The translations under genes were made by a program, and so were the position numbers. A DNA stretch of 64,000 bases, from UHGV virus genome UHGV-0033546. The stretch is one strand, 5' to 3'. The stretch is from a virus. Positions 1,221-52,257 of the stretch are shown here, in pieces. The notes under the pieces are model-generated. The model made no database searches, was not told the origin of the DNA, and worked only from the letters and a program-made list of their open reading frames with translations. Every line of letters starts with the position of its first letter. The stretch's first letter is position 1.

Positions 1221-2648
1221 CTAAAATTTTAATTCATTTGCCAAAGCATCTAACTGAGCTCGAGCGGATTCGTTTCTTTGATAGCGGTTCTGTTCAGCTT
1301 GAATCTGCTGTGAACCTGCTACTTCGTTCACTTCGGTTGGAGTAGAATCTTGTTCAATTTCTACCCATTTCTGATTTCCTTTTTGAACACCCATCAAAAA
1401 CTTATTCCATTTATTCTTATCACCATATCGTGATTTGATTTGCTTAATGAGTTGTTGTTCAGCAGCTGCTAACTCTTCAGTTTCAATGACCGCAAGCATA
1501 AAATCGGCTGTCGCTGGAAGACCAGCAGATTCTGCTATATCACTCATGTTAACATCAGAAGAGTCCCAAGCTTGTTTACCAACCTGCGCTGCAGTCCAAA
1601 GAACAGTTTCAGTTTCAACAGCCAGAGCACGTAATTCCTCTGCAATAGCTTTAACAGTTGTGTAACTATTTTCTGAATAAACTCGGATGCGGCACGATTT
1701 ACAAATACCTAGATAGTCGACAATAATGATTGTTGGAACAAAATTCTTCTTGAGCTTCAATTCATTCAAGAGAGACCTGAATGTGTTAGCATCTGCTCCA
1801 CCAGTAGGATACTGTTTAACAATTAAACGACCGAGAGTAGATTTCTCACGCCATTTTTCCATTTTTCCTTTATACTCAGCGTAAGAAATATGCCCATCAT
1901 CAATGTCATCAAGAGAAACATCAAGCATATTAGCATCAATGCGCTTAGCACAGACTTCTTCTGCCATTTCCATGGAAATGTAAAGAACATTATGTCCAAG
2001 CTGCAAATAATCTGCTGCTAATGAACACAATCCTAATGACTTACCAACGTTAACACCAGCCATTAAAACGTTCAGTGTTCCAGTCTCAGCTCCGCCTTTA
2101 GTAATTTTATTCAGAATTTTGAGTCTAAATGGAACCTTACGAGCTTTATTCATATAAGATAGCCAACGTGCTTCGTAGTCATCCATCCAATCATGGCCAA
2201 CGTAGCTATCAAATGAAATTGATAATGCTTGACGCATGATGTCAGGAATAGCACCTACATCTGGCATTTTCTTATTTCGTTTTTCCGGAGGAAGCTCAGC
2301 ATTGGTTTGAATTTCAATTATTTTAGACGTAGCATTAAACATCGCCCTTTGCTGAACATATTTTTCTGTTTCTTTTACTAACCAACTGTGGTCTTCCGGA
2401 GAATCAGCTAGTTTTGAAATAAGTGTTTTTACACCAGAATATTCTGTTTCAGTAAATGAACTATTTTCTAATGCAACATTTAACGCATTAATAGATGGAA
2501 CGCTATGGTACTCATTGACATGAGATTTAATTAATTTGAATGTATTTTTAGCTGGACCACTTTCAAAATATTCTGAATCCATATATGGCCAAACTTTTGA
2601 AAAATAAGCTTGATCAAATATGAGATGAGAAAGAATAATTTCTACCAC
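1221..2648 (-). CDS. 41: gp41 replicative DNA helicase (DnaB-like), 475 aa
   Basis: Walker A GVNVGKS, DnaB-family architecture, 475 aa; GTG start at 2648 with strong AAGGAG SD; matches T4 gp41 sequence as recalled. Confidence 0.93.
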   Translation of the reverse strand: MVEIILSHLIFDQAYFSKVWPYMDSEYFESGPAKNTFKLIKSHVNEYHSVPSINALNVALENSSFTETEYSGVKTLISKLADSPEDHSWLVKETEKYVQQRAMFNATSKIIEIQTNAELPPEKRNKKMPDVGAIPDIMRQALSISFDSYVGHDWMDDYEARWLSYMNKARKVPFRLKILNKITKGGAETGTLNVLMAGVNVGKSLGLCSLAADYLQLGHNVLYISMEMAEEVCAKRIDANMLDVSLDDIDDGHISYAEYKGKMEKWREKSTLGRLIVKQYPTGGADANTFRSLLNELKLKKNFVPTIIIVDYLGICKSCRIRVYSENSYTTVKAIAEELRALAVETETVLWTAAQVGKQAWDSSDVNMSDIAESAGLPATADFMLAVIETEELAAAEQQLIKQIKSRYGDKNKWNKFLMGVQKGNQKWVEIEQDSTPTEVNEVAGSQQIQAEQNRYQRNESARAQLDALANELKF

Positions 2649-49841: not shown

Positions 49842-49980
49842 CAGTTTTGTGAAAAAATTTTTAAAAATTTTTAGGGAATTCTAGGGCAGGGAGGGGAAAT
49901 TAAAAGGTAGGATAATATATTATAAAGGGTATAAACTAAATGATGCCTAGAAAGGCCCGGAAAGGCCTAGATACCAAAAA

Positions 49981-50002
49981 GCCCCAACCTTTCGGCTGGG
50001 GC
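49981..50002 (-). terminator. intrinsic terminator, 9-bp stem with GAAA tetraloop and U5 tract, immediately after the IP-like gene
   Basis: Transcript GCCCCAGCC-GAAA-GGUUGGGGC followed by UUUUU; near-identical twin at 50540-50561. Confidence 0.6.
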
Positions 50003-50010
50003 TAAGAATG

Positions 50011-50484
50011 TTATTTGATTTGTTTAGCAGACCAAATGCGGTCTTTAATAATTTTTTGGATGTCTTCAACATACTCTAGGTCATGAGCATGTGGATTATC
50101 TTTAAAACTATGAGCTCGCGCAAGTTTCTGGCCTTCGGTCTTAATTACCAAAAGTTCTTTAAGGATAGCTTCATATTTAGAGATAATTCCTTTAACAATA
50201 TTTTTCTCTTGTGCGGCTTTAGGATCTGCTTTAGGAGCAGGTTTACCCGAAGCCTTTGCAAAAGCAGCTCCAGTAGCAACTAGACTTTTCCAGGCCATAC
50301 TAACCGCATTTCCCGTAAATCCTTCTGCTTTCATGTCGCGAGCAAATTGGAATCGTGATTCGTCAGAAGCATCTTTATAAGAATATTTACCCGCTGCAAT
50401 GGCTGCTTTTGCAACAGCTTGAATTTCGGTGCTAGATGCTTCATTTAACACCGCTTCATTTAAAAATTGAGTATATGATTTCAT
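50011..50484 (-). CDS. internal-protein-like protein with capsid-targeting-like leader, 157 aa
   Basis: N-terminus MKSYTQFLNEA follows the IP leader pattern; Ala/Lys-rich body; own late promoter and flanking terminators. Confidence 0.5.
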   Translation of the reverse strand: MKSYTQFLNEAVLNEASSTEIQAVAKAAIAAGKYSYKDASDESRFQFARDMKAEGFTGNAVSMAWKSLVATGAAFAKASGKPAPKADPKAAQEKNIVKGIISKYEAILKELLVIKTEGQKLARAHSFKDNPHAHDLEYVEDIQKIIKDRIWSAKQIK

Positions 50485-50524
50485 CTTATTTCCTGTTTTA
50501 ATTCGTGGATTTAATATACTACTA

Positions 50525-50532
50525 TATTTATA
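50525..50532 (-). promoter_or_regulatory. late promoter box TATAAATA
   Basis: Exact consensus on minus strand 41 nt upstream of ATG 50484; AGGAAA SD in the UTR. Confidence 0.55.
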
Positions 50533-50539
50533 CTAAAAA

Positions 50540-50561
50540 GCCCCAACCTTTCGGTCGGGGC
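50540..50561 (-). terminator. intrinsic terminator, 9-bp stem with GAAA loop and U5 tract (twin of 49981-50002)
   Basis: Transcript GCCCCGACC-GAAA-GGUUGGGGC followed by UUUUUAG; closes the tRNA/small-RNA transcription unit. Confidence 0.6.
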
Positions 50562-50868
50562 TAAGCCTTGCGGCAACCTTGTCGGGGTTCCACCTGCTAA
50601 GGCAAGTGTTTGTACGAAACGCCGGGATTCGAACCCGGTTATTAAGTAGTTGACGCTACTCAATATTTTTAAAAGGCCATATCTCGACCATATCCGAACG
50701 TTCCGTCAAAAACGCTACTCGGCTTACGGTAAAGATATTTCCTCGAATCGATAATTCGGTGCGCCGTTTCAGCTGTGATAGTAAAGAACCAGAACACAGT
50801 AAAACTGTGGGAGGAACTATACTCCAGGGAACATCAGTCCGACGACTTACCGGTAGCGACCCGGTTTC
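50562..50868 (-). ncRNA. candidate stable small RNA(s) downstream of the tRNA array (T4 species 1/2-like region), boundaries uncertain
   Basis: No minus-strand ORF; contains a perfect tRNA T-arm-like element (CCGGG-UUCGAAU-CCCGG at 50620-50636) and several GC-rich stems. Confidence 0.35.
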
Positions 50869-51219
50869 TTAATATTCTTTTAAAGTATCAATCTGTTCAC
50901 GACGTTTACGCCATAAATCAATTGCTTCATACGCAGATTCAGCATTTCGAATTAGTCGGCATTTGTGTAAAGACTTATGATTTTGATATTGTGTAGATAA
51001 CGGAATTTTATCTAAAAGGTCTTTACGTTCAAAGTATTCGTAACCATCTAAGCCAAATGAACGATTTTTAAGAAATTGCCAATGACCATATTCGTTTTCG
51101 ACATAAACATAATCCGCGTGTTGATAAAGCAAATTAATTACACGTTCAGAAATAACAGTGTCATTGTGATTAAAATAAAATGTTAAATCATGAACTACTA
51201 AATAAACATTACCTTTCAT
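50869..51219 (-). CDS. hypothetical protein, 116 aa
   Basis: Track ORF with ATG at 51219, directly downstream of tRNA-Arg. Confidence 0.5.
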   Translation of the reverse strand: MKGNVYLVVHDLTFYFNHNDTVISERVINLLYQHADYVYVENEYGHWQFLKNRSFGLDGYEYFERKDLLDKIPLSTQYQNHKSLHKCRLIRNAESAYEAIDLWRKRREQIDTLKEY

Positions 51220-51235: not shown

Positions 51236-51311
51236 TGGTCGAGGCAGTAGGGATCGAACCTACGACCTAGGACTTAGAAGGTCCTTGCTCTTCCTTCTGA
51301 GCTATGCCCCG
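51236..51311 (-). tRNA. tRNA-Arg (anticodon UCU), CCA encoded
   Basis: Manual cloverleaf: acceptor CGGGGCA/TGCCTCG, T-arm GTAGG-TTCGATC-CCTAC, anticodon loop CUUCUAA. Confidence 0.85.
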
Positions 51312-51315
51312 TAAT

Positions 51316-51391
51316 TGGGGTGACCGATGGGAGTCGAACCCATGACTACGAGAATCACAATCTCGAGTTCTACCAACTGAACTACGGCCAC
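51316..51391 (-). tRNA. tRNA-His (anticodon GUG), CCA encoded
   Basis: Manual cloverleaf: acceptor GTGGCCG/CGGTCAC, D-arm GTTC-AGTTGGTA-GAAC, anticodon loop UUGUGAU, T-loop TTCGACT. Confidence 0.8.
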
Positions 51392-51505
51392 ATTAATACC
51401 TACTCCAACAATCAAGATGTCTTCACACGAAATTAAGAGAAGAATGATCAGTTCAACCCTTATAATCGCGTCAAGTAGATATTAATGTGACAGTTGTCAC
51501 AAATT

Positions 51506-51580
51506 TGGCGGACATGCATGGATTCGAACCATGGACCAATTGATTAACAGTCAACTGCTCTACCACTGAGCTACACATCC
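51506..51580 (-). tRNA. tRNA-Asn (anticodon GUU), CCA encoded
   Basis: Manual cloverleaf: acceptor GGATGTG/CATGTCC, anticodon loop CUGUUAA, T-arm CATGG-TTCGAAT-CCATG. Confidence 0.8.
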
Positions 51581-51584
51581 AAAT

Positions 51585-51671
51585 TGGTGGGGAGTGATGG
51601 AGTCGAACCACCCGAGTCGCAATGACAATGGATTTACAGTCCACACCGCTACCTCTACGGGATAACTCCCC
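51585..51671 (-). tRNA. tRNA-Tyr (anticodon GUA), type II with long variable arm, CCA encoded
   Basis: Acceptor GGGGAGT/ACTCCCC, anticodon loop CUGUAAA, 15-nt variable arm, T-loop TTCGACT. Confidence 0.75.
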
Positions 51672-51684
51672 CTAATTCATAATT

Positions 51685-51759
51685 TGGTGGCCCTGGGTGG
51701 AATTGAACCACCATCTGGCGATTATGAGTCGCTTGCTTGAACCTTCCAGCTACAGGGCC
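51685..51759 (-). tRNA. tRNA with anticodon CAU (Met, or Ile if lysidine-modified as in the T4 tRNA-Ile)
   Basis: Acceptor GGCCCTG/CAGGGCC perfect 7 bp, anticodon loop CUCAUAA, T-arm GGTGG-TTCAATT-CCACC. Confidence 0.8.
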
Positions 51760-51760
51760 T

Positions 51761-51836
51761 TGGTGCTGATTGACGGAATCGAACCGCCGACATCCTCATT
51801 ACAAGTGAGGTGCTCTACCTACTGAGCTAAATCAGC
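51761..51836 (-). tRNA. tRNA-Thr (anticodon UGU), CCA encoded
   Basis: Acceptor GCTGATT/AATCAGC, anticodon loop CUUGUAA, T-loop TTCGATT. Confidence 0.85.
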
Positions 51837-51841
51837 AAAAC

Positions 51842-51931
51842 TGGCGGAGGCGATAGGATTTGAACCTATGAGTCGCCGGAGCGACTGCCGGTTTTCAAGA
51901 CCGGTGCATTAAACCACTCTGCCACGCCTCC
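51842..51931 (-). tRNA. tRNA-Ser (anticodon UGA), type II, CCA encoded
   Basis: Acceptor GGAGGCG/CGCCTCC, anticodon loop CUUGAAA, long variable arm. Confidence 0.85.
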
Positions 51932-51933
51932 AG

Positions 51934-52007
51934 TCTCCATACAAGGATTTGAACCTTGGACCTCCTGATCCCAAATCAGGCGCTCTACCAAACTGAGCTA
52001 CACGGAG
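51934..52007 (-). tRNA. tRNA-Pro (anticodon UGG), CCA not encoded
   Basis: Acceptor CTCCGTG/TATGGAG, anticodon loop UUUGGGA; 3' end is 2 nt from the tRNA-Ser 5' end. Confidence 0.85.
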
Positions 52008-52017
52008 TAAATTAAAT

Positions 52018-52091
<74 letters not shown>

Positions 52092-52096
52092 AAATT

Positions 52097-52183
52097 TGGT
52101 GCGAGAAGTGGGACTCGAACCCACAAGGAAATCATTCCGCAGCATTTTAAGTGCTGTGCCTTTACCAATTTGACCATTCTCGC
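52097..52183 (-). tRNA. tRNA-Leu (anticodon UAA), type II, CCA encoded
   Basis: Acceptor GCGAGAA/TTCTCGC, anticodon loop CUUAAAA, long variable arm. Confidence 0.85.
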
Positions 52184-52184
52184 G

Positions 52185-52257
52185 CTGGGAATAAAGGACT
52201 CGAACCTTTGCATCCTGGAATCAAAATCCAGTGCCTTACCAACTTGGCTAATTCCCA
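52185..52257 (-). tRNA. tRNA-Gln (anticodon UUG), CCA not encoded
   Basis: Acceptor TGGGAAT/ATTCCCA, anticodon loop UUUUGAU; 3' end is 1 nt from the tRNA-Leu 5' end. Confidence 0.85.

What the first reader, a model, noticed from the sequence alone, without database searches (positions are those of the whole stretch)
50562..50868. About 300 nt of structured non-coding sequence with a tRNA-like T-arm downstream of tRNA-Arg
No plausible minus-strand ORF, yet the region has a perfect T-arm-like element (CCGGG-UUCGAAU-CCCGG) and GC-rich stems, and is closed by a strong terminator. This fits one or two stable small RNAs like the T4 species 1/2 RNAs, whose function is still unknown.
Basis: partly seen in the sequence, partly recalled or inferred. 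Interest (0 to 1): 0.5.

Follow-up and report, generated by a model that had tools for sequence, protein, structure and literature searches.

The report
Phage T4 stable RNAs C and D
This stretch is the counterpart, in a T4-like phage, of the two small stable RNAs (species 1 and 2, rnaC and rnaD) known in phage T4 since the 1970s; their function is still unknown, but comparison across phage genera shows that rnaC folds as a tRNA-like cloverleaf whose two extra arms touch through complementary loops.

Summary
The window comes from a Tequatrovirus (T4-like phage). Bases 50872..50534 on the minus strand align almost base for base with T4 rnaD (species 2 RNA), rnaC (species 1 RNA), their shared trailer and the terminator. 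rnaC differs from T4 at 2 of 139 positions. The element is therefore already known, and the literature I could read still lists its function as unknown.

Comparison of 29 homologues from about a dozen Tevenvirinae genera adds structure:
- rnaC is a four-helix cloverleaf. A 7-position acceptor-like stem (P0) abuts the "T-arm" (P3), followed by U plus ACA (UCCA in some genera).
- A long arm (P1) and a short arm (P2) replace the D and anticodon arms.
- The six-base loops of P1 and P2 are perfectly complementary and change together: UUGACG/CGUCAA, UUGGCG/CGCCAA, UUGCAG/CUGCAA.
- rnaC is not a real tRNA. GenBank's "tRNA-Lys" and "tRNA-Phe" calls over it use an acceptor pairing that conservation does not support.
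- In most other genera rnaC sits directly between tRNA genes.
- rnaD is less conserved and appears only in the T4-like genus group.

The proposed function, a tRNA mimic processed like a tRNA and perhaps a decoy, is inference only.

The parts
50758..50872 (-). rnaD homologue (T4 species 2 RNA). The ends are placed by homology only; the 5' end overlaps the stop codon of the upstream 116-aa ORF.
   Evidence: Alignment to T4 L001 2672..2554. The 5' ~44 nt and 3' ~27 nt are near-identical to T4, and the central ~45 nt are diverged. Consensus fold of 14 variants.
50849..50865 (-). rnaD 5' hairpin ACCGG-GUCGCUA-CCGGU (5 bp, 7-nt loop).
   Evidence: The closing pair is A-U in 9, G-C in 4 and G-U in 1 of 14 sequences.
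50752..50757 (-). Spacer GAAUUA between rnaD and rnaC. This is the inferred processing site that creates the rnaC 5' end.
   Evidence: T4 annotation ends rnaD at ...GCGCACC and starts rnaC at UCGAUUCG. The equivalent A/U-rich spacer follows the CCA of the upstream tRNA in other genera.
50613..50751 (-). rnaC homologue (T4 species 1 RNA, 139 nt): a tRNA-like cloverleaf P0-P1-P2-P3.
   Evidence: 2 differences from T4 in 139 nt. Covariance model R1 scores 178.6 bits, and this is the only copy in the window (the window was in the training set). Covariation.
50744..50750 (-). P0 5' strand CGAUUCG (acceptor-like stem).
   Evidence: Pairs with 50621..50615 in the MFE fold. Pair 3 is A-U in T4-like phages and G-C elsewhere. 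Klebsiella phage JD18 has CGGUAUG/CAUACCG and Pectobacterium phage PM2 has AGGUUCG/CGAAUCU, both perfect 7-bp helices.
50674..50743 (-). P1, a long irregular hairpin that replaces the D arm.
   Evidence: The stem sequence is completely different in Enterobacter phage KMB17, Edwardsiella phage PEi20 and the Marfavirus phages, yet still pairs.
50704..50709 (-). P1 apical loop UUGACG.
   Evidence: Identical in all genera except Marfavirus (UUGGCG), JD18 (UUGCAG) and PM2 (GAGACG).
50640..50665 (-). P2, a 10-bp hairpin that replaces the anticodon arm.
   Evidence: All 10 pairs show changes on both sides (9 of 10 in the MAFFT alignment).
50650..50655 (-). P2 loop CGUCAA, perfectly complementary to the P1 loop.
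   Evidence: CGCCAA in Marfavirus, CUGCAA in JD18 and CGUCA in PM2. The loop-loop helix is paired in 99.4% of cells, and two of its pairs change on both sides.
50622..50638 (-).
   Evidence: 100% paired, with the third pair covarying. The loop fits the T-loop pattern UUCRANN in most genera but is UGCAUUC or UGCAUGC in Winklervirus and an unnamed clade.
50615..50621 (-). P0 3' strand CGUUUCG, directly following P3 as in a tRNA.
50610..50614 (-). 3' tail U-ACA-A at the position of discriminator plus CCA. By the T4 annotation, the mature RNA ends after UA (50613).
   Evidence: The tail is UCCA in Marfavirus, JD18 and PM2.
50563..50612 (-). Conserved trailer between rnaC and the terminator. It contains the hairpin CACUUGC-CUUA-GCAGGUG.
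   Evidence: Near-identical to T4 and to other T4-like loci. No covariation was seen. Absent in genera where a tRNA follows rnaC.
50534..50562 (-). Intrinsic terminator AGCCCCGACC-GAAA-GGUUGGGGCU followed by UUUUU.
   Evidence: The same terminator is present in T4.

Best explanation
**What it is (shown).** This is the 3' end of the phage's tRNA operon. It carries the orthologues of T4 rnaD (species 2 RNA) and rnaC (species 1 RNA), a conserved trailer and the operon's intrinsic terminator.

**How it is made (inferred from architecture and the T4 literature).** The segment is transcribed together with the upstream tRNAs and, in this phage, the inserted 116-aa ORF. The transcript is then cut into two stable RNAs. 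The ends of rnaC pair with each other to form a 7-position acceptor-like stem (P0). P0 is directly followed by the 5-bp T-arm, giving the same acceptor/T-arm geometry as the top half of a tRNA. The most likely maturation is therefore tRNA-like: RNase P or a nearby endonuclease cut on the 5' side, and exonuclease trimming on the 3' side. In most other genera rnaC lies between two tRNA genes, a few bases from each.

**How rnaC folds (shown by covariation).** It is a cloverleaf of P0, P1, P2 and P3. The D and anticodon arms are replaced by a ~70-nt arm (P1) and a 10-bp arm (P2). Their six-base loops pair with each other as a kissing interaction. I cannot tell whether this happens within one molecule or between two.

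**What it does (guess, about 0.25).** It may be a stable tRNA mimic that occupies a host or phage factor recognising the tRNA acceptor/T-arm half, such as a processing or modifying enzyme or a tRNA-directed defence toxin. The kissing arms would give it a fixed, nuclease-resistant shape.

**rnaD.** It is a less constrained companion RNA, found only in the T4-like genus group, with a lineage-specific central arm.

The confidence figure covers identity, biogenesis outline and fold, not the function.
For: **Identity**
- The T4 record annotates rnaD and rnaC after tRNA-Arg.
- The window aligns colinearly with them through to the terminator.
- 811 phage records hold a match, 680 of them over at least 80% of the query. 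Most are Escherichia, Shigella or Yersinia T4-like phages.

**Structure**
- Three-hairpin model on a MAFFT alignment of 21 sequences: 97.8% of cells paired, and 21 pairs changed on both sides against 7.5 +/- 1.7 in shuffles and 3-6 in slid controls.
- P0 and the loop-loop helix were not part of the covariance model, so the CM-fitted alignment does not favour them.
- P0 pair types: pair 10/157 is C-G in 28 and A-U in 1; pair 12/155 is G-C in 21, A-U in 7 and G-U in 1; pair 15/152 is C-G in 28 and U-A in 1. The tandem U.U becomes Watson-Crick pairs in JD18 and PM2.
- Loop-loop helix: 99.4% paired. Pair 55/119 is A-U in 25, G-C in 3 and C-G in 1. Pair 56/118 is C-G in 28 and A-U in 1.
- Both loops keep their sequence while the stems beneath them are entirely replaced in KMB17, PEi20 and Enterobacter phage UFV01.

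**Context**
- rnaC is flanked directly by tRNAs in Karamvirus, Winklervirus, Gelderlandvirus and Moonvirus.
- The tail reads UCCA in three lineages.

**Literature**
- RNAC and RNAD are real T4 RNAs of unknown function (PMC3014915).
- They were classed as late RNAs, with RNAC validated by Northern blot (PMC9697503).
- A convergent SNP in the rnaD homologue arose when a T4-like phage was evolved on a semi-permissive host (PMC12685909).
Against: - No transcript data exist for this phage.
- Nothing here tests function.
- rnaC is dispensable in at least one natural isolate. In Escherichia phage pEC-M719-6WT.2 it is replaced by an ORF while rnaD, trailer and terminator stay.
- The T-loop sequence is lost in two clades (UGCAUUC, UGCAUGC). 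A role that depends on a canonical T-loop therefore cannot be universal.
- In most sequences P0 has two U.U mismatches, and the window's tail is ACA rather than CCA, so recognition by tRNA enzymes is not assured.
- The loop covariation rests on three lineages, meaning few independent events.
- rnaD on its own folds no better than shuffled sequence.
Confidence: 0.85

Rival explanations
1. The 3' part of the region is a genuine, unusual tRNA gene, as annotated in GenBank for related phages: tRNA-Lys(ttt), 94 nt, or tRNA-Phe(gaa), 96 nt, with a long variable arm.
For: - ARAGORN calls tRNA-Lys(ttt) on Escherichia phage G29, which differs by a few bases.
- Enterobacter phage KKP_3262 is annotated tRNA-Phe(gaa) over the same element.
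- Rfam tRNA-Sec gives a weak match: 17 bits against a 47-bit threshold, E = 1.5.
Against: - ARAGORN and Rfam tRNA find nothing here in the window.
- The acceptor pairing these calls rely on (ACGGAACG/CGUUUCGU) shows no compensatory change. Its fourth pair is broken in 10 of 21 sequences, and more pairs break in KMB17 and PEi20.
- The same 5' bases are firmly paired inside P1, which covaries.
- The supposed anticodon differs between annotations and falls in the P1-P2 linker.
Confidence: 0.02
2. rnaC and rnaD have no function of their own. They are decayed tRNA genes or spacers kept only as processing punctuation, providing RNase P, RNase E and exonuclease landmarks so that neighbouring tRNAs and the operon's 3' end mature correctly.
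For: - rnaC sits between tRNAs in many genera, with short spacers.
- It has tRNA-like ends.
- A degenerate tRNA-like element occupies the rnaD position in Kosakonia phage Kc304.
- rnaC is replaceable in one isolate.
Against: - Punctuation would need only P0 and P3. P1 keeps its length and its loop, and P2 its loop, across about a dozen genera while the stems turn over, and the two loops covary.
- rnaC differs from T4 at only 2 of 139 positions, while the adjacent rnaD core is unalignable.
- The RNAs accumulate as stable species in T4 (PMC9697503).
Confidence: 0.2
3. rnaC is a self-associating RNA.
For: - Two perfectly complementary six-base loops that covary.
- P1 (~26 bp) and P2 (10 bp) are very unequal in length. 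A closed antiparallel dimer (P1 of one molecule stacked through the kiss on P2 of the other) fits simple geometry. This is my own reasoning, not computed.
Against: - P1 carries conserved bulges (GUA or AUGA, plus internal loops) that could bend it back onto P2 within one molecule.
- No experiment or computation here separates the cis and trans cases.
- PM2 keeps only four of the six loop pairs.
Confidence: 0.25
4. rnaC and/or rnaD are trans-acting antisense regulators that base-pair with host or phage mRNAs.
For: - Small, abundant phage RNAs ending at a strong terminator.
- Conserved single-stranded stretches: the 5' UCGRUUCG before folding, the linker UUUWAAAAAU, and the 3' tail.
- The SNP in the rnaD homologue selected during host adaptation (PMC12685909).
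Against: - The invariant exposed elements are only six bases long and are complementary to each other.
- Most of rnaC is locked in covarying helices.
- The mature species are cut away from the terminator's U-tail, so they lack the usual Hfq-type 3' end.
- No target search was done beyond this reasoning.
Confidence: 0.1
5. The region encodes small proteins, as the 'hypothetical protein' CDS features over it in many GenBank records imply.
For: - ORFs of 42 and 50 aa (minus strand) and 34-73 aa (plus strand) exist.
- Several records annotate CDSs over the region.
Against: - Single-base indels between close relatives and wholesale segment replacement.
- The substitution pattern is compensatory base pairing, not codon-wise.
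- The T4 reference annotates RNAs here.
Confidence: 0.01

Closest known systems
Bacteriophage T4 rnaC (species 1 RNA) and rnaD (species 2 RNA)
   Same: Direct orthologues. Order, strand and terminator are the same. rnaC differs at 2 of 139 positions, and the rnaD ends are near-identical.
   Different: - The central arm of rnaD is a different sequence, a variant shared with G29 and others.
- A 116-aa ORF separates tRNA-Arg from rnaD here, whereas in T4 rnaD starts two bases after tRNA-Arg.
- A 157-aa ORF with a second copy of the terminator follows.
tRNA, and tRNA-like domains such as the tmRNA tRNA-like domain or the tRNA-like module of bacterial Y RNAs (from general knowledge)
   Same: A 7-position terminal helix directly followed by a 5-bp arm with a 7-nt UUCRANN loop, then one base plus (A/C)CA. 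The element lives in a tRNA operon a few bases from the neighbouring tRNAs.
   Different: - No D arm or anticodon arm.
- Tandem U.U mismatches in the terminal helix in most sequences.
- No CCA in the window.
- No tag ORF.
- Not detected by ARAGORN or by any Rfam model.
phi29 packaging RNA, and large phage-associated RNAs that multimerise (ROOL, GOLLD), both recalled from memory and not tested
   Same: A phage-encoded structured RNA with two mutually complementary loops. ROOL and GOLLD are also often found near tRNA genes.
   Different: No sequence or Rfam similarity. Multimerisation of rnaC is untested. As far as I know, T4 DNA packaging needs no RNA.
Self-cleaving ribozymes next to phage tRNAs (hammerhead, HDV-like theta), recalled from memory
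   Same: Small structured RNAs embedded in phage tRNA clusters and involved in processing.
   Different: No Rfam ribozyme match even at E<=10. The CUGAUG...GAAAC motifs in rnaD lack the essential A9 and are paired to each other in the consensus fold.

Membership tests
T4 rnaC (species 1 RNA) | Full-length sequence homology to T4 rnaC. | tested here: met
   137 of 139 positions identical in a colinear alignment.
T4 rnaC (species 1 RNA) | Position at the 3' end of the tRNA operon, on the same strand, after rnaD and before the shared terminator. | tested here: met
T4 rnaC (species 1 RNA) | Accumulates as a discrete, stable ~139-nt RNA in infected cells. | not testable with these tools
   Shown for T4 only (Northern blot in PMC9697503).
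T4 rnaD (species 2 RNA) | Sequence homology to T4 rnaD. | tested here: met
   The 5' ~44 nt and 3' ~27 nt are near-identical. The central ~45 nt is a different, lineage-specific arm.
T4 rnaD (species 2 RNA) | Accumulates as a discrete, stable ~119-nt RNA. | not testable with these tools
   The 5' end in this phage lies inside or next to the stop codon of an inserted ORF, so its maturation may differ from T4.
tRNA | Recognised by tRNA detectors (ARAGORN, Rfam RF00005). | tested here: not met
   No call in 50534..50872. The best clan match is tRNA-Sec at 17 bits against a 47-bit threshold.
tRNA | 7-bp acceptor stem directly followed by a 5-bp T arm with a 7-nt T-loop. | tested here: met
   P0 (50750..50744 with 50621..50615) abuts P3 (50638..50622). 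P0 covaries, although most sequences have two U.U mismatches.
tRNA | D arm, and an anticodon arm with a 7-nt loop carrying an anticodon. | tested here: not met
   These are replaced by the ~70-nt P1 and the 10-bp P2, whose 6-nt loop CGUCAA pairs with the P1 loop.
tRNA | 3' discriminator base followed by CCA (encoded or added). | tested here: not met
   The window has U-ACA. Marfavirus, JD18 and PM2 homologues have U-CCA.
tmRNA | tRNA-like domain plus a tag reading frame, detectable by ARAGORN or Rfam. | tested here: not met
   (permuted tmRNA at 10 bits only).
Known Rfam families (Y RNA, ribozymes, sRNAs) | Score at or above the family gathering threshold. | tested here: not met
   No non-tRNA hit in the window. 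All matches at E<=10 are far below threshold.
Intrinsic (Rho-independent) terminator | G+C-rich hairpin followed by a U-run. | tested here: met
   10-bp stem with 7 G-C pairs, GAAA loop, then UUUUU, at 50562..50534.

The most novel reading that the evidence does not exclude
rnaC is a tRNA-derived mimic. It keeps the acceptor/T-arm half of a tRNA, with an encoded CCA end in some genera, but has replaced the decoding half by two arms locked together through a covarying six-base kissing interaction. It acts late in infection in one of two ways: as a decoy for a host factor that recognises tRNA ends (for example a tRNA-directed defence toxin or a processing enzyme), or as a self-assembling RNA particle. 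If the cloverleaf-plus-kissing-loop architecture has not been described before, it is the first concrete handle on a 50-year-old orphan RNA.
Probability: 0.2. Interest if true: 0.7.

Novelty: already known. Interest (0 to 1): 0.4.

Why it matters
- **A long-standing orphan.** The RNAs have been catalogued since the 1970s, yet reviews still list them as function unknown (PMC3014915, PMC9697503).
- **Conservation.** rnaC is conserved across about a dozen genera of T4-like phages of enterobacteria.
- **Testable predictions.** The comparative structure gives precise mutants to make: loop and compensatory loop mutants, P0 mutants, and CCA versus ACA tails.
- **Annotation clean-up.** The element is repeatedly mis-annotated in GenBank as tRNA-Lys, tRNA-Phe or a hypothetical protein.
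- **For this window.** The finding needs no new explanation. It is the expected rnaD-rnaC module.

Tried and rejected
1. **tRNA reading of the rnaC 3' part.** Rejected: the acceptor pairing it needs is broken in half the sequences and shows no compensation.
2. **P1 loop pairing with the 3' tail (CGUACAA).** This looked promising when Marfavirus changed the tail to CGUCCAA together with the loops. JD18 has the same tail with a P1 loop (UUGCAG) that cannot pair with it, so I dropped it. The tail is better read as discriminator plus (A/C)CA.
3. **Hammerhead-like reading of CUGAUG...GAAAC in rnaD.** Rejected: the core A9 is missing, the two motifs pair with each other, and there is no Rfam hit.
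4. **Rfam at gathering and permissive thresholds.** Nothing but the 11 tRNAs.
5. **Pattern scans for more distant rnaC.** IMG/VR gave 11 and 17 loci and metagenomes gave 10, all close relatives. One-genome-per-species bacterial contigs gave 0 hits.
6. **Literature searches.** Searches for 'species 1 RNA', 'p2Sp1' and tRNA-like T4 RNAs returned nothing useful. The T4 genome review (PMC150520) is not held. The 1970s sequence papers were not found by the searches, so I could not check whether a cloverleaf was drawn for species 1 RNA at that time.
7. **Trailer 50612..50563.** Conserved, but without covariation. No role assigned.

Full report
**What is there.** The window carries a cluster of 11 tRNA genes on the minus strand at 51236..52257. 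Downstream on the same strand lie four things in order:
- a 116-aa ORF at 51219..50869;
- about 310 nt without a credible ORF;
- a strong intrinsic terminator at 50562..50539 plus a U-run;
- a 157-aa ORF followed by a second, nearly identical terminator at 50003..49980.

The 337-nt stretch folds far better than shuffled sequence (z = -5.98).

**Identity.** A BLAST of 50540..50880 against GenBank phages finds 811 records, almost all T4-like phages of Escherichia, Shigella, Yersinia and relatives. The best matches are 99% identical. In the T4 reference record, the segment after tRNA-Arg is annotated as rnaD ("small, stable RNA; species 2 RNA", 119 nt) followed by rnaC ("species 1 RNA", 139 nt).

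The window aligns colinearly with this T4 segment through to the same terminator:
- rnaC differs at 2 positions;
- the trailer is almost identical;
- the two ends of rnaD are near-identical;
- the central ~45 nt of rnaD is a different sequence.

By homology the parts are rnaD at about 50872..50758, rnaC at 50751..50613, the trailer at 50612..50563 and the terminator at 50562..50534. Reviews and recent omics papers still call the function of RNAC and RNAD unknown (PMC3014915). PMC9697503 classed both as late RNAs and validated RNAC by Northern blot. One evolution experiment found the same SNP in the rnaD homologue of a T4-like phage in all lines adapted to a semi-permissive E. coli strain (PMC12685909).

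**Not a tRNA, not in Rfam.** ARAGORN and Rfam find nothing in the region. At permissive thresholds, only noise-level matches appear. GenBank records of relatives label the 3' part of rnaC as tRNA-Lys(ttt) (G29; reproduced by ARAGORN) or tRNA-Phe(gaa) (KKP_3262). Many other records put "hypothetical protein" CDSs over it.

**Homologues in other genera.** I collected rnaC homologues by BLAST with divergent queries, by pattern scans of IMG/VR and metagenomes, and with a covariance model. They occur in these genera:
- Tequatrovirus, Mosigvirus, Gaprivervirus and Dhakavirus;
- Karamvirus, Winklervirus, Kanagawavirus and Moonvirus;
- Gelderlandvirus, Marfavirus, Jiaodavirus and Mosugukvirus;
- unclassified relatives.

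In most genera outside the T4-like group, rnaC lies directly between tRNA genes. Examples are tRNA-Trp, rnaC, tRNA-Gly in Karamvirus and Gelderlandvirus, and tRNA-Met, rnaC, tRNA-Gly in Moonvirus. A 7-9-nt A/U-rich spacer follows the upstream CCA, and the next tRNA starts 2-8 nt after the rnaC tail. Among the loci fetched, rnaD was found only in the Tequatrovirus, Mosigvirus, Gaprivervirus and Dhakavirus group. A scan of one genome per bacterial species found no copy.

**Structure of rnaC.** On a MAFFT alignment of 21 distinct sequences, a three-hairpin model (P1, P2, P3) has 97.8% of cells paired. It has 21 pairs with changes on both sides, against 7.5 +/- 1.7 in column shuffles and 3-6 when the partners are slid.

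In KMB17, PEi20, UFV01 and the Marfavirus phages the stems of P1 or P2 are entirely different sequences that still pair. The acceptor helix needed for the tRNA-Lys or tRNA-Phe reading has no compensatory change and is broken in about half of the sequences. That reading is rejected.

The minimum-energy fold of the mature 139-nt RNA (z = -4.48) also pairs the 5' end CGAUUCG with the 3' end CGUUUCG. This helix, P0, is supported by comparison:
- its third pair is A-U in the T4-like group and G-C elsewhere, and is never broken;
- in JD18 it is CGGUAUG/CAUACCG, a perfect 7-bp helix;
- in PM2 it is AGGUUCG/CGAAUCU, also a perfect 7-bp helix, so the tandem U.U mismatch of the other sequences is replaced by Watson-Crick pairs.

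P0 is directly followed by P3, exactly as the acceptor stem follows the T arm in a tRNA. After P0 comes U plus ACA in the T4-like and most other genera, and U plus CCA in Marfavirus, JD18 and PM2. rnaC is thus a cloverleaf with a tRNA-like top half. The T4-annotated mature ends (5' U one base before P0, 3' UA just after it) sit flush with P0.

The P3 loop fits the T-loop pattern UUCRANN in most genera. It is UGCAUUC or UGCAUGC in Winklervirus and one unnamed clade.

**The kissing loops.** The apical loop of P1 (UUGACG, 50709..50704) and the loop of P2 (CGUCAA, 50655..50650) are perfectly complementary. Both keep their sequence in all genera where the stems below them have turned over. In three lineages they differ, and they differ together:

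| Lineage | P1 loop | P2 loop | Complementary pairs |
|---|---|---|---|
| Most genera, including the window | UUGACG | CGUCAA | 6 of 6 |
| Marfavirus | UUGGCG | CGCCAA | 6 of 6 |
| Jiaodavirus JD18 | UUGCAG | CUGCAA | 6 of 6 |
| Mosugukvirus PM2 | GAGACG | CGUCA | 4 kept |

On the 29-sequence alignment the loop-loop helix is paired in 99.4% of cells. Pair 55/119 is A-U in 25, G-C in 3 and C-G in 1. Pair 56/118 is C-G in 28 and A-U in 1.

That alignment was fitted to a model containing P1-P3, so counts for those helices lean towards the model. P0 and the loop-loop helix were not in the model. The loop covariation rests on only a few independent events, but it is hard to explain otherwise.

Whether the kiss forms within one molecule or between two cannot be decided here. 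Within one molecule, P1 would have to bend at its conserved bulges. Between two, an antiparallel dimer fits simple geometry.

**rnaD and the trailer.** Fourteen rnaD variants share three features:
- a 5' hairpin of 5 bp with a 7-nt loop, whose closing pair covaries;
- a long-range closing helix, GUCGUCG with CGGCG-AC;
- a central arm whose sequence is lineage-specific.

The window's rnaD alone does not fold better than shuffles (z = -0.84). The trailer is highly conserved within the T4-like group but shows no covariation. I assign it no role beyond carrying the terminator.

**How it probably works.**
- *Shown:* identity with T4 rnaD and rnaC; the position at the end of a tRNA operon closed by a terminator; the cloverleaf and the loop-loop pairing of rnaC.
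- *Inferred:* the RNAs are cut from the operon transcript. Because P0 plus P3 reproduce the tRNA acceptor/T-arm helix, and tRNAs flank rnaC in other genera, rnaC is most likely matured by the tRNA machinery: RNase P or a nearby endonuclease on the 5' side, and exonucleases on the 3' side.
- *Guess (about 0.25):* mature rnaC is a stable tRNA mimic that engages a factor recognising tRNA ends. The kissing arms would provide a rigid body.

The rivals are a pure processing-punctuation role, self-assembly through the loops, and antisense regulation.

Against any essential role, one natural phage (pEC-M719-6WT.2) has replaced rnaC by an ORF while keeping rnaD, the trailer and the terminator. The T4 tRNA region is also known to be dispensable on laboratory hosts, but that is my own knowledge and was not checked here.

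**Verdict.** The element is already known, so novelty is low. Interest is moderate because the function of these RNAs is a long-standing gap, and the comparative structure found here (tRNA-like P0/P3 half, covarying kissing loops, CCA-type tails in some genera) makes it directly testable. I could not find the 1970s primary papers through the searches available, so I cannot say how much of this fold was already drawn.

Noticed in passing
window 50869..51219 (-): A 116-aa ORF (phrog_3355, unknown function) sits between tRNA-Arg and rnaD. T4 has no gene there: its rnaD starts two bases after tRNA-Arg. The ORF's stop codon overlaps the homology-defined 5' end of rnaD. The same ORF is present in G29 and Escherichia phage ACG-C40.
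   Followed up: partly
window 49980..50562 (-): A 157-aa ORF (50011..50484, phrog_2280, unknown function) is bracketed by two nearly identical copies of the rnaC terminator (50562..50539 and 50003..49980). In T4 a single terminator is followed directly by the sequence that here follows the second copy. This looks like an insertion that duplicated the terminator.
   Followed up: partly
L031 (Escherichia phage pEC-M719-6WT.2) 714..1218: rnaC is absent (no covariance-model hit). It is replaced by ~500 nt carrying a TATAAATA late-promoter-like motif and a 127-aa ORF. rnaD (the same variant as the window), the trailer and the terminator remain. BLAST rows H37 and H38 suggest similar replacements in other phages.
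   Followed up: partly
L018 ~1283..1412; L017 ~1351..1480; also L006, L014, L041: Directly downstream of rnaC in Enterobacter phage MY742, PEi20 and related contigs lies a conserved ~130-nt element. It has a perfect 7-bp acceptor-like stem (GAUUUGU/ACAAAUC), D-arm-like and T-arm-like parts (GUAGG-UUCGAGC-CCUAU), and about 60 nt inserted in the anticodon/variable region. ARAGORN and Rfam do not call it. It may be an intron-containing tRNA or another tRNA-like RNA.
   Followed up: partly
L003 (Kosakonia phage Kc304) ~1420..1497: At the position that rnaD occupies in T4-like phages, Kc304 has a degenerate tRNA-like element. It has acceptor GGGAGUU/AGCUCCC, T arm GUUGG-AUCGUUA-CCAAC and the end ACCA. 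ARAGORN does not call it.
   Followed up: no
GenBank records MK327940 (G29), OK210076 (KKP_3262) and many others: The rnaC/rnaD region is repeatedly mis-annotated as tRNA-Lys(ttt), tRNA-Phe(gaa) or one to three 'hypothetical protein' CDSs. Few records carry the rnaC label.
   Followed up: yes
window 51392..51505 (-): A 114-nt gap inside the tRNA cluster, between tRNA-Asn and tRNA-His. It contains an inverted repeat (GUGACAACUGUCAC) and a TTGACG...TATAAG stretch that could be an internal promoter. The promoter scan did not report it.
   Followed up: no
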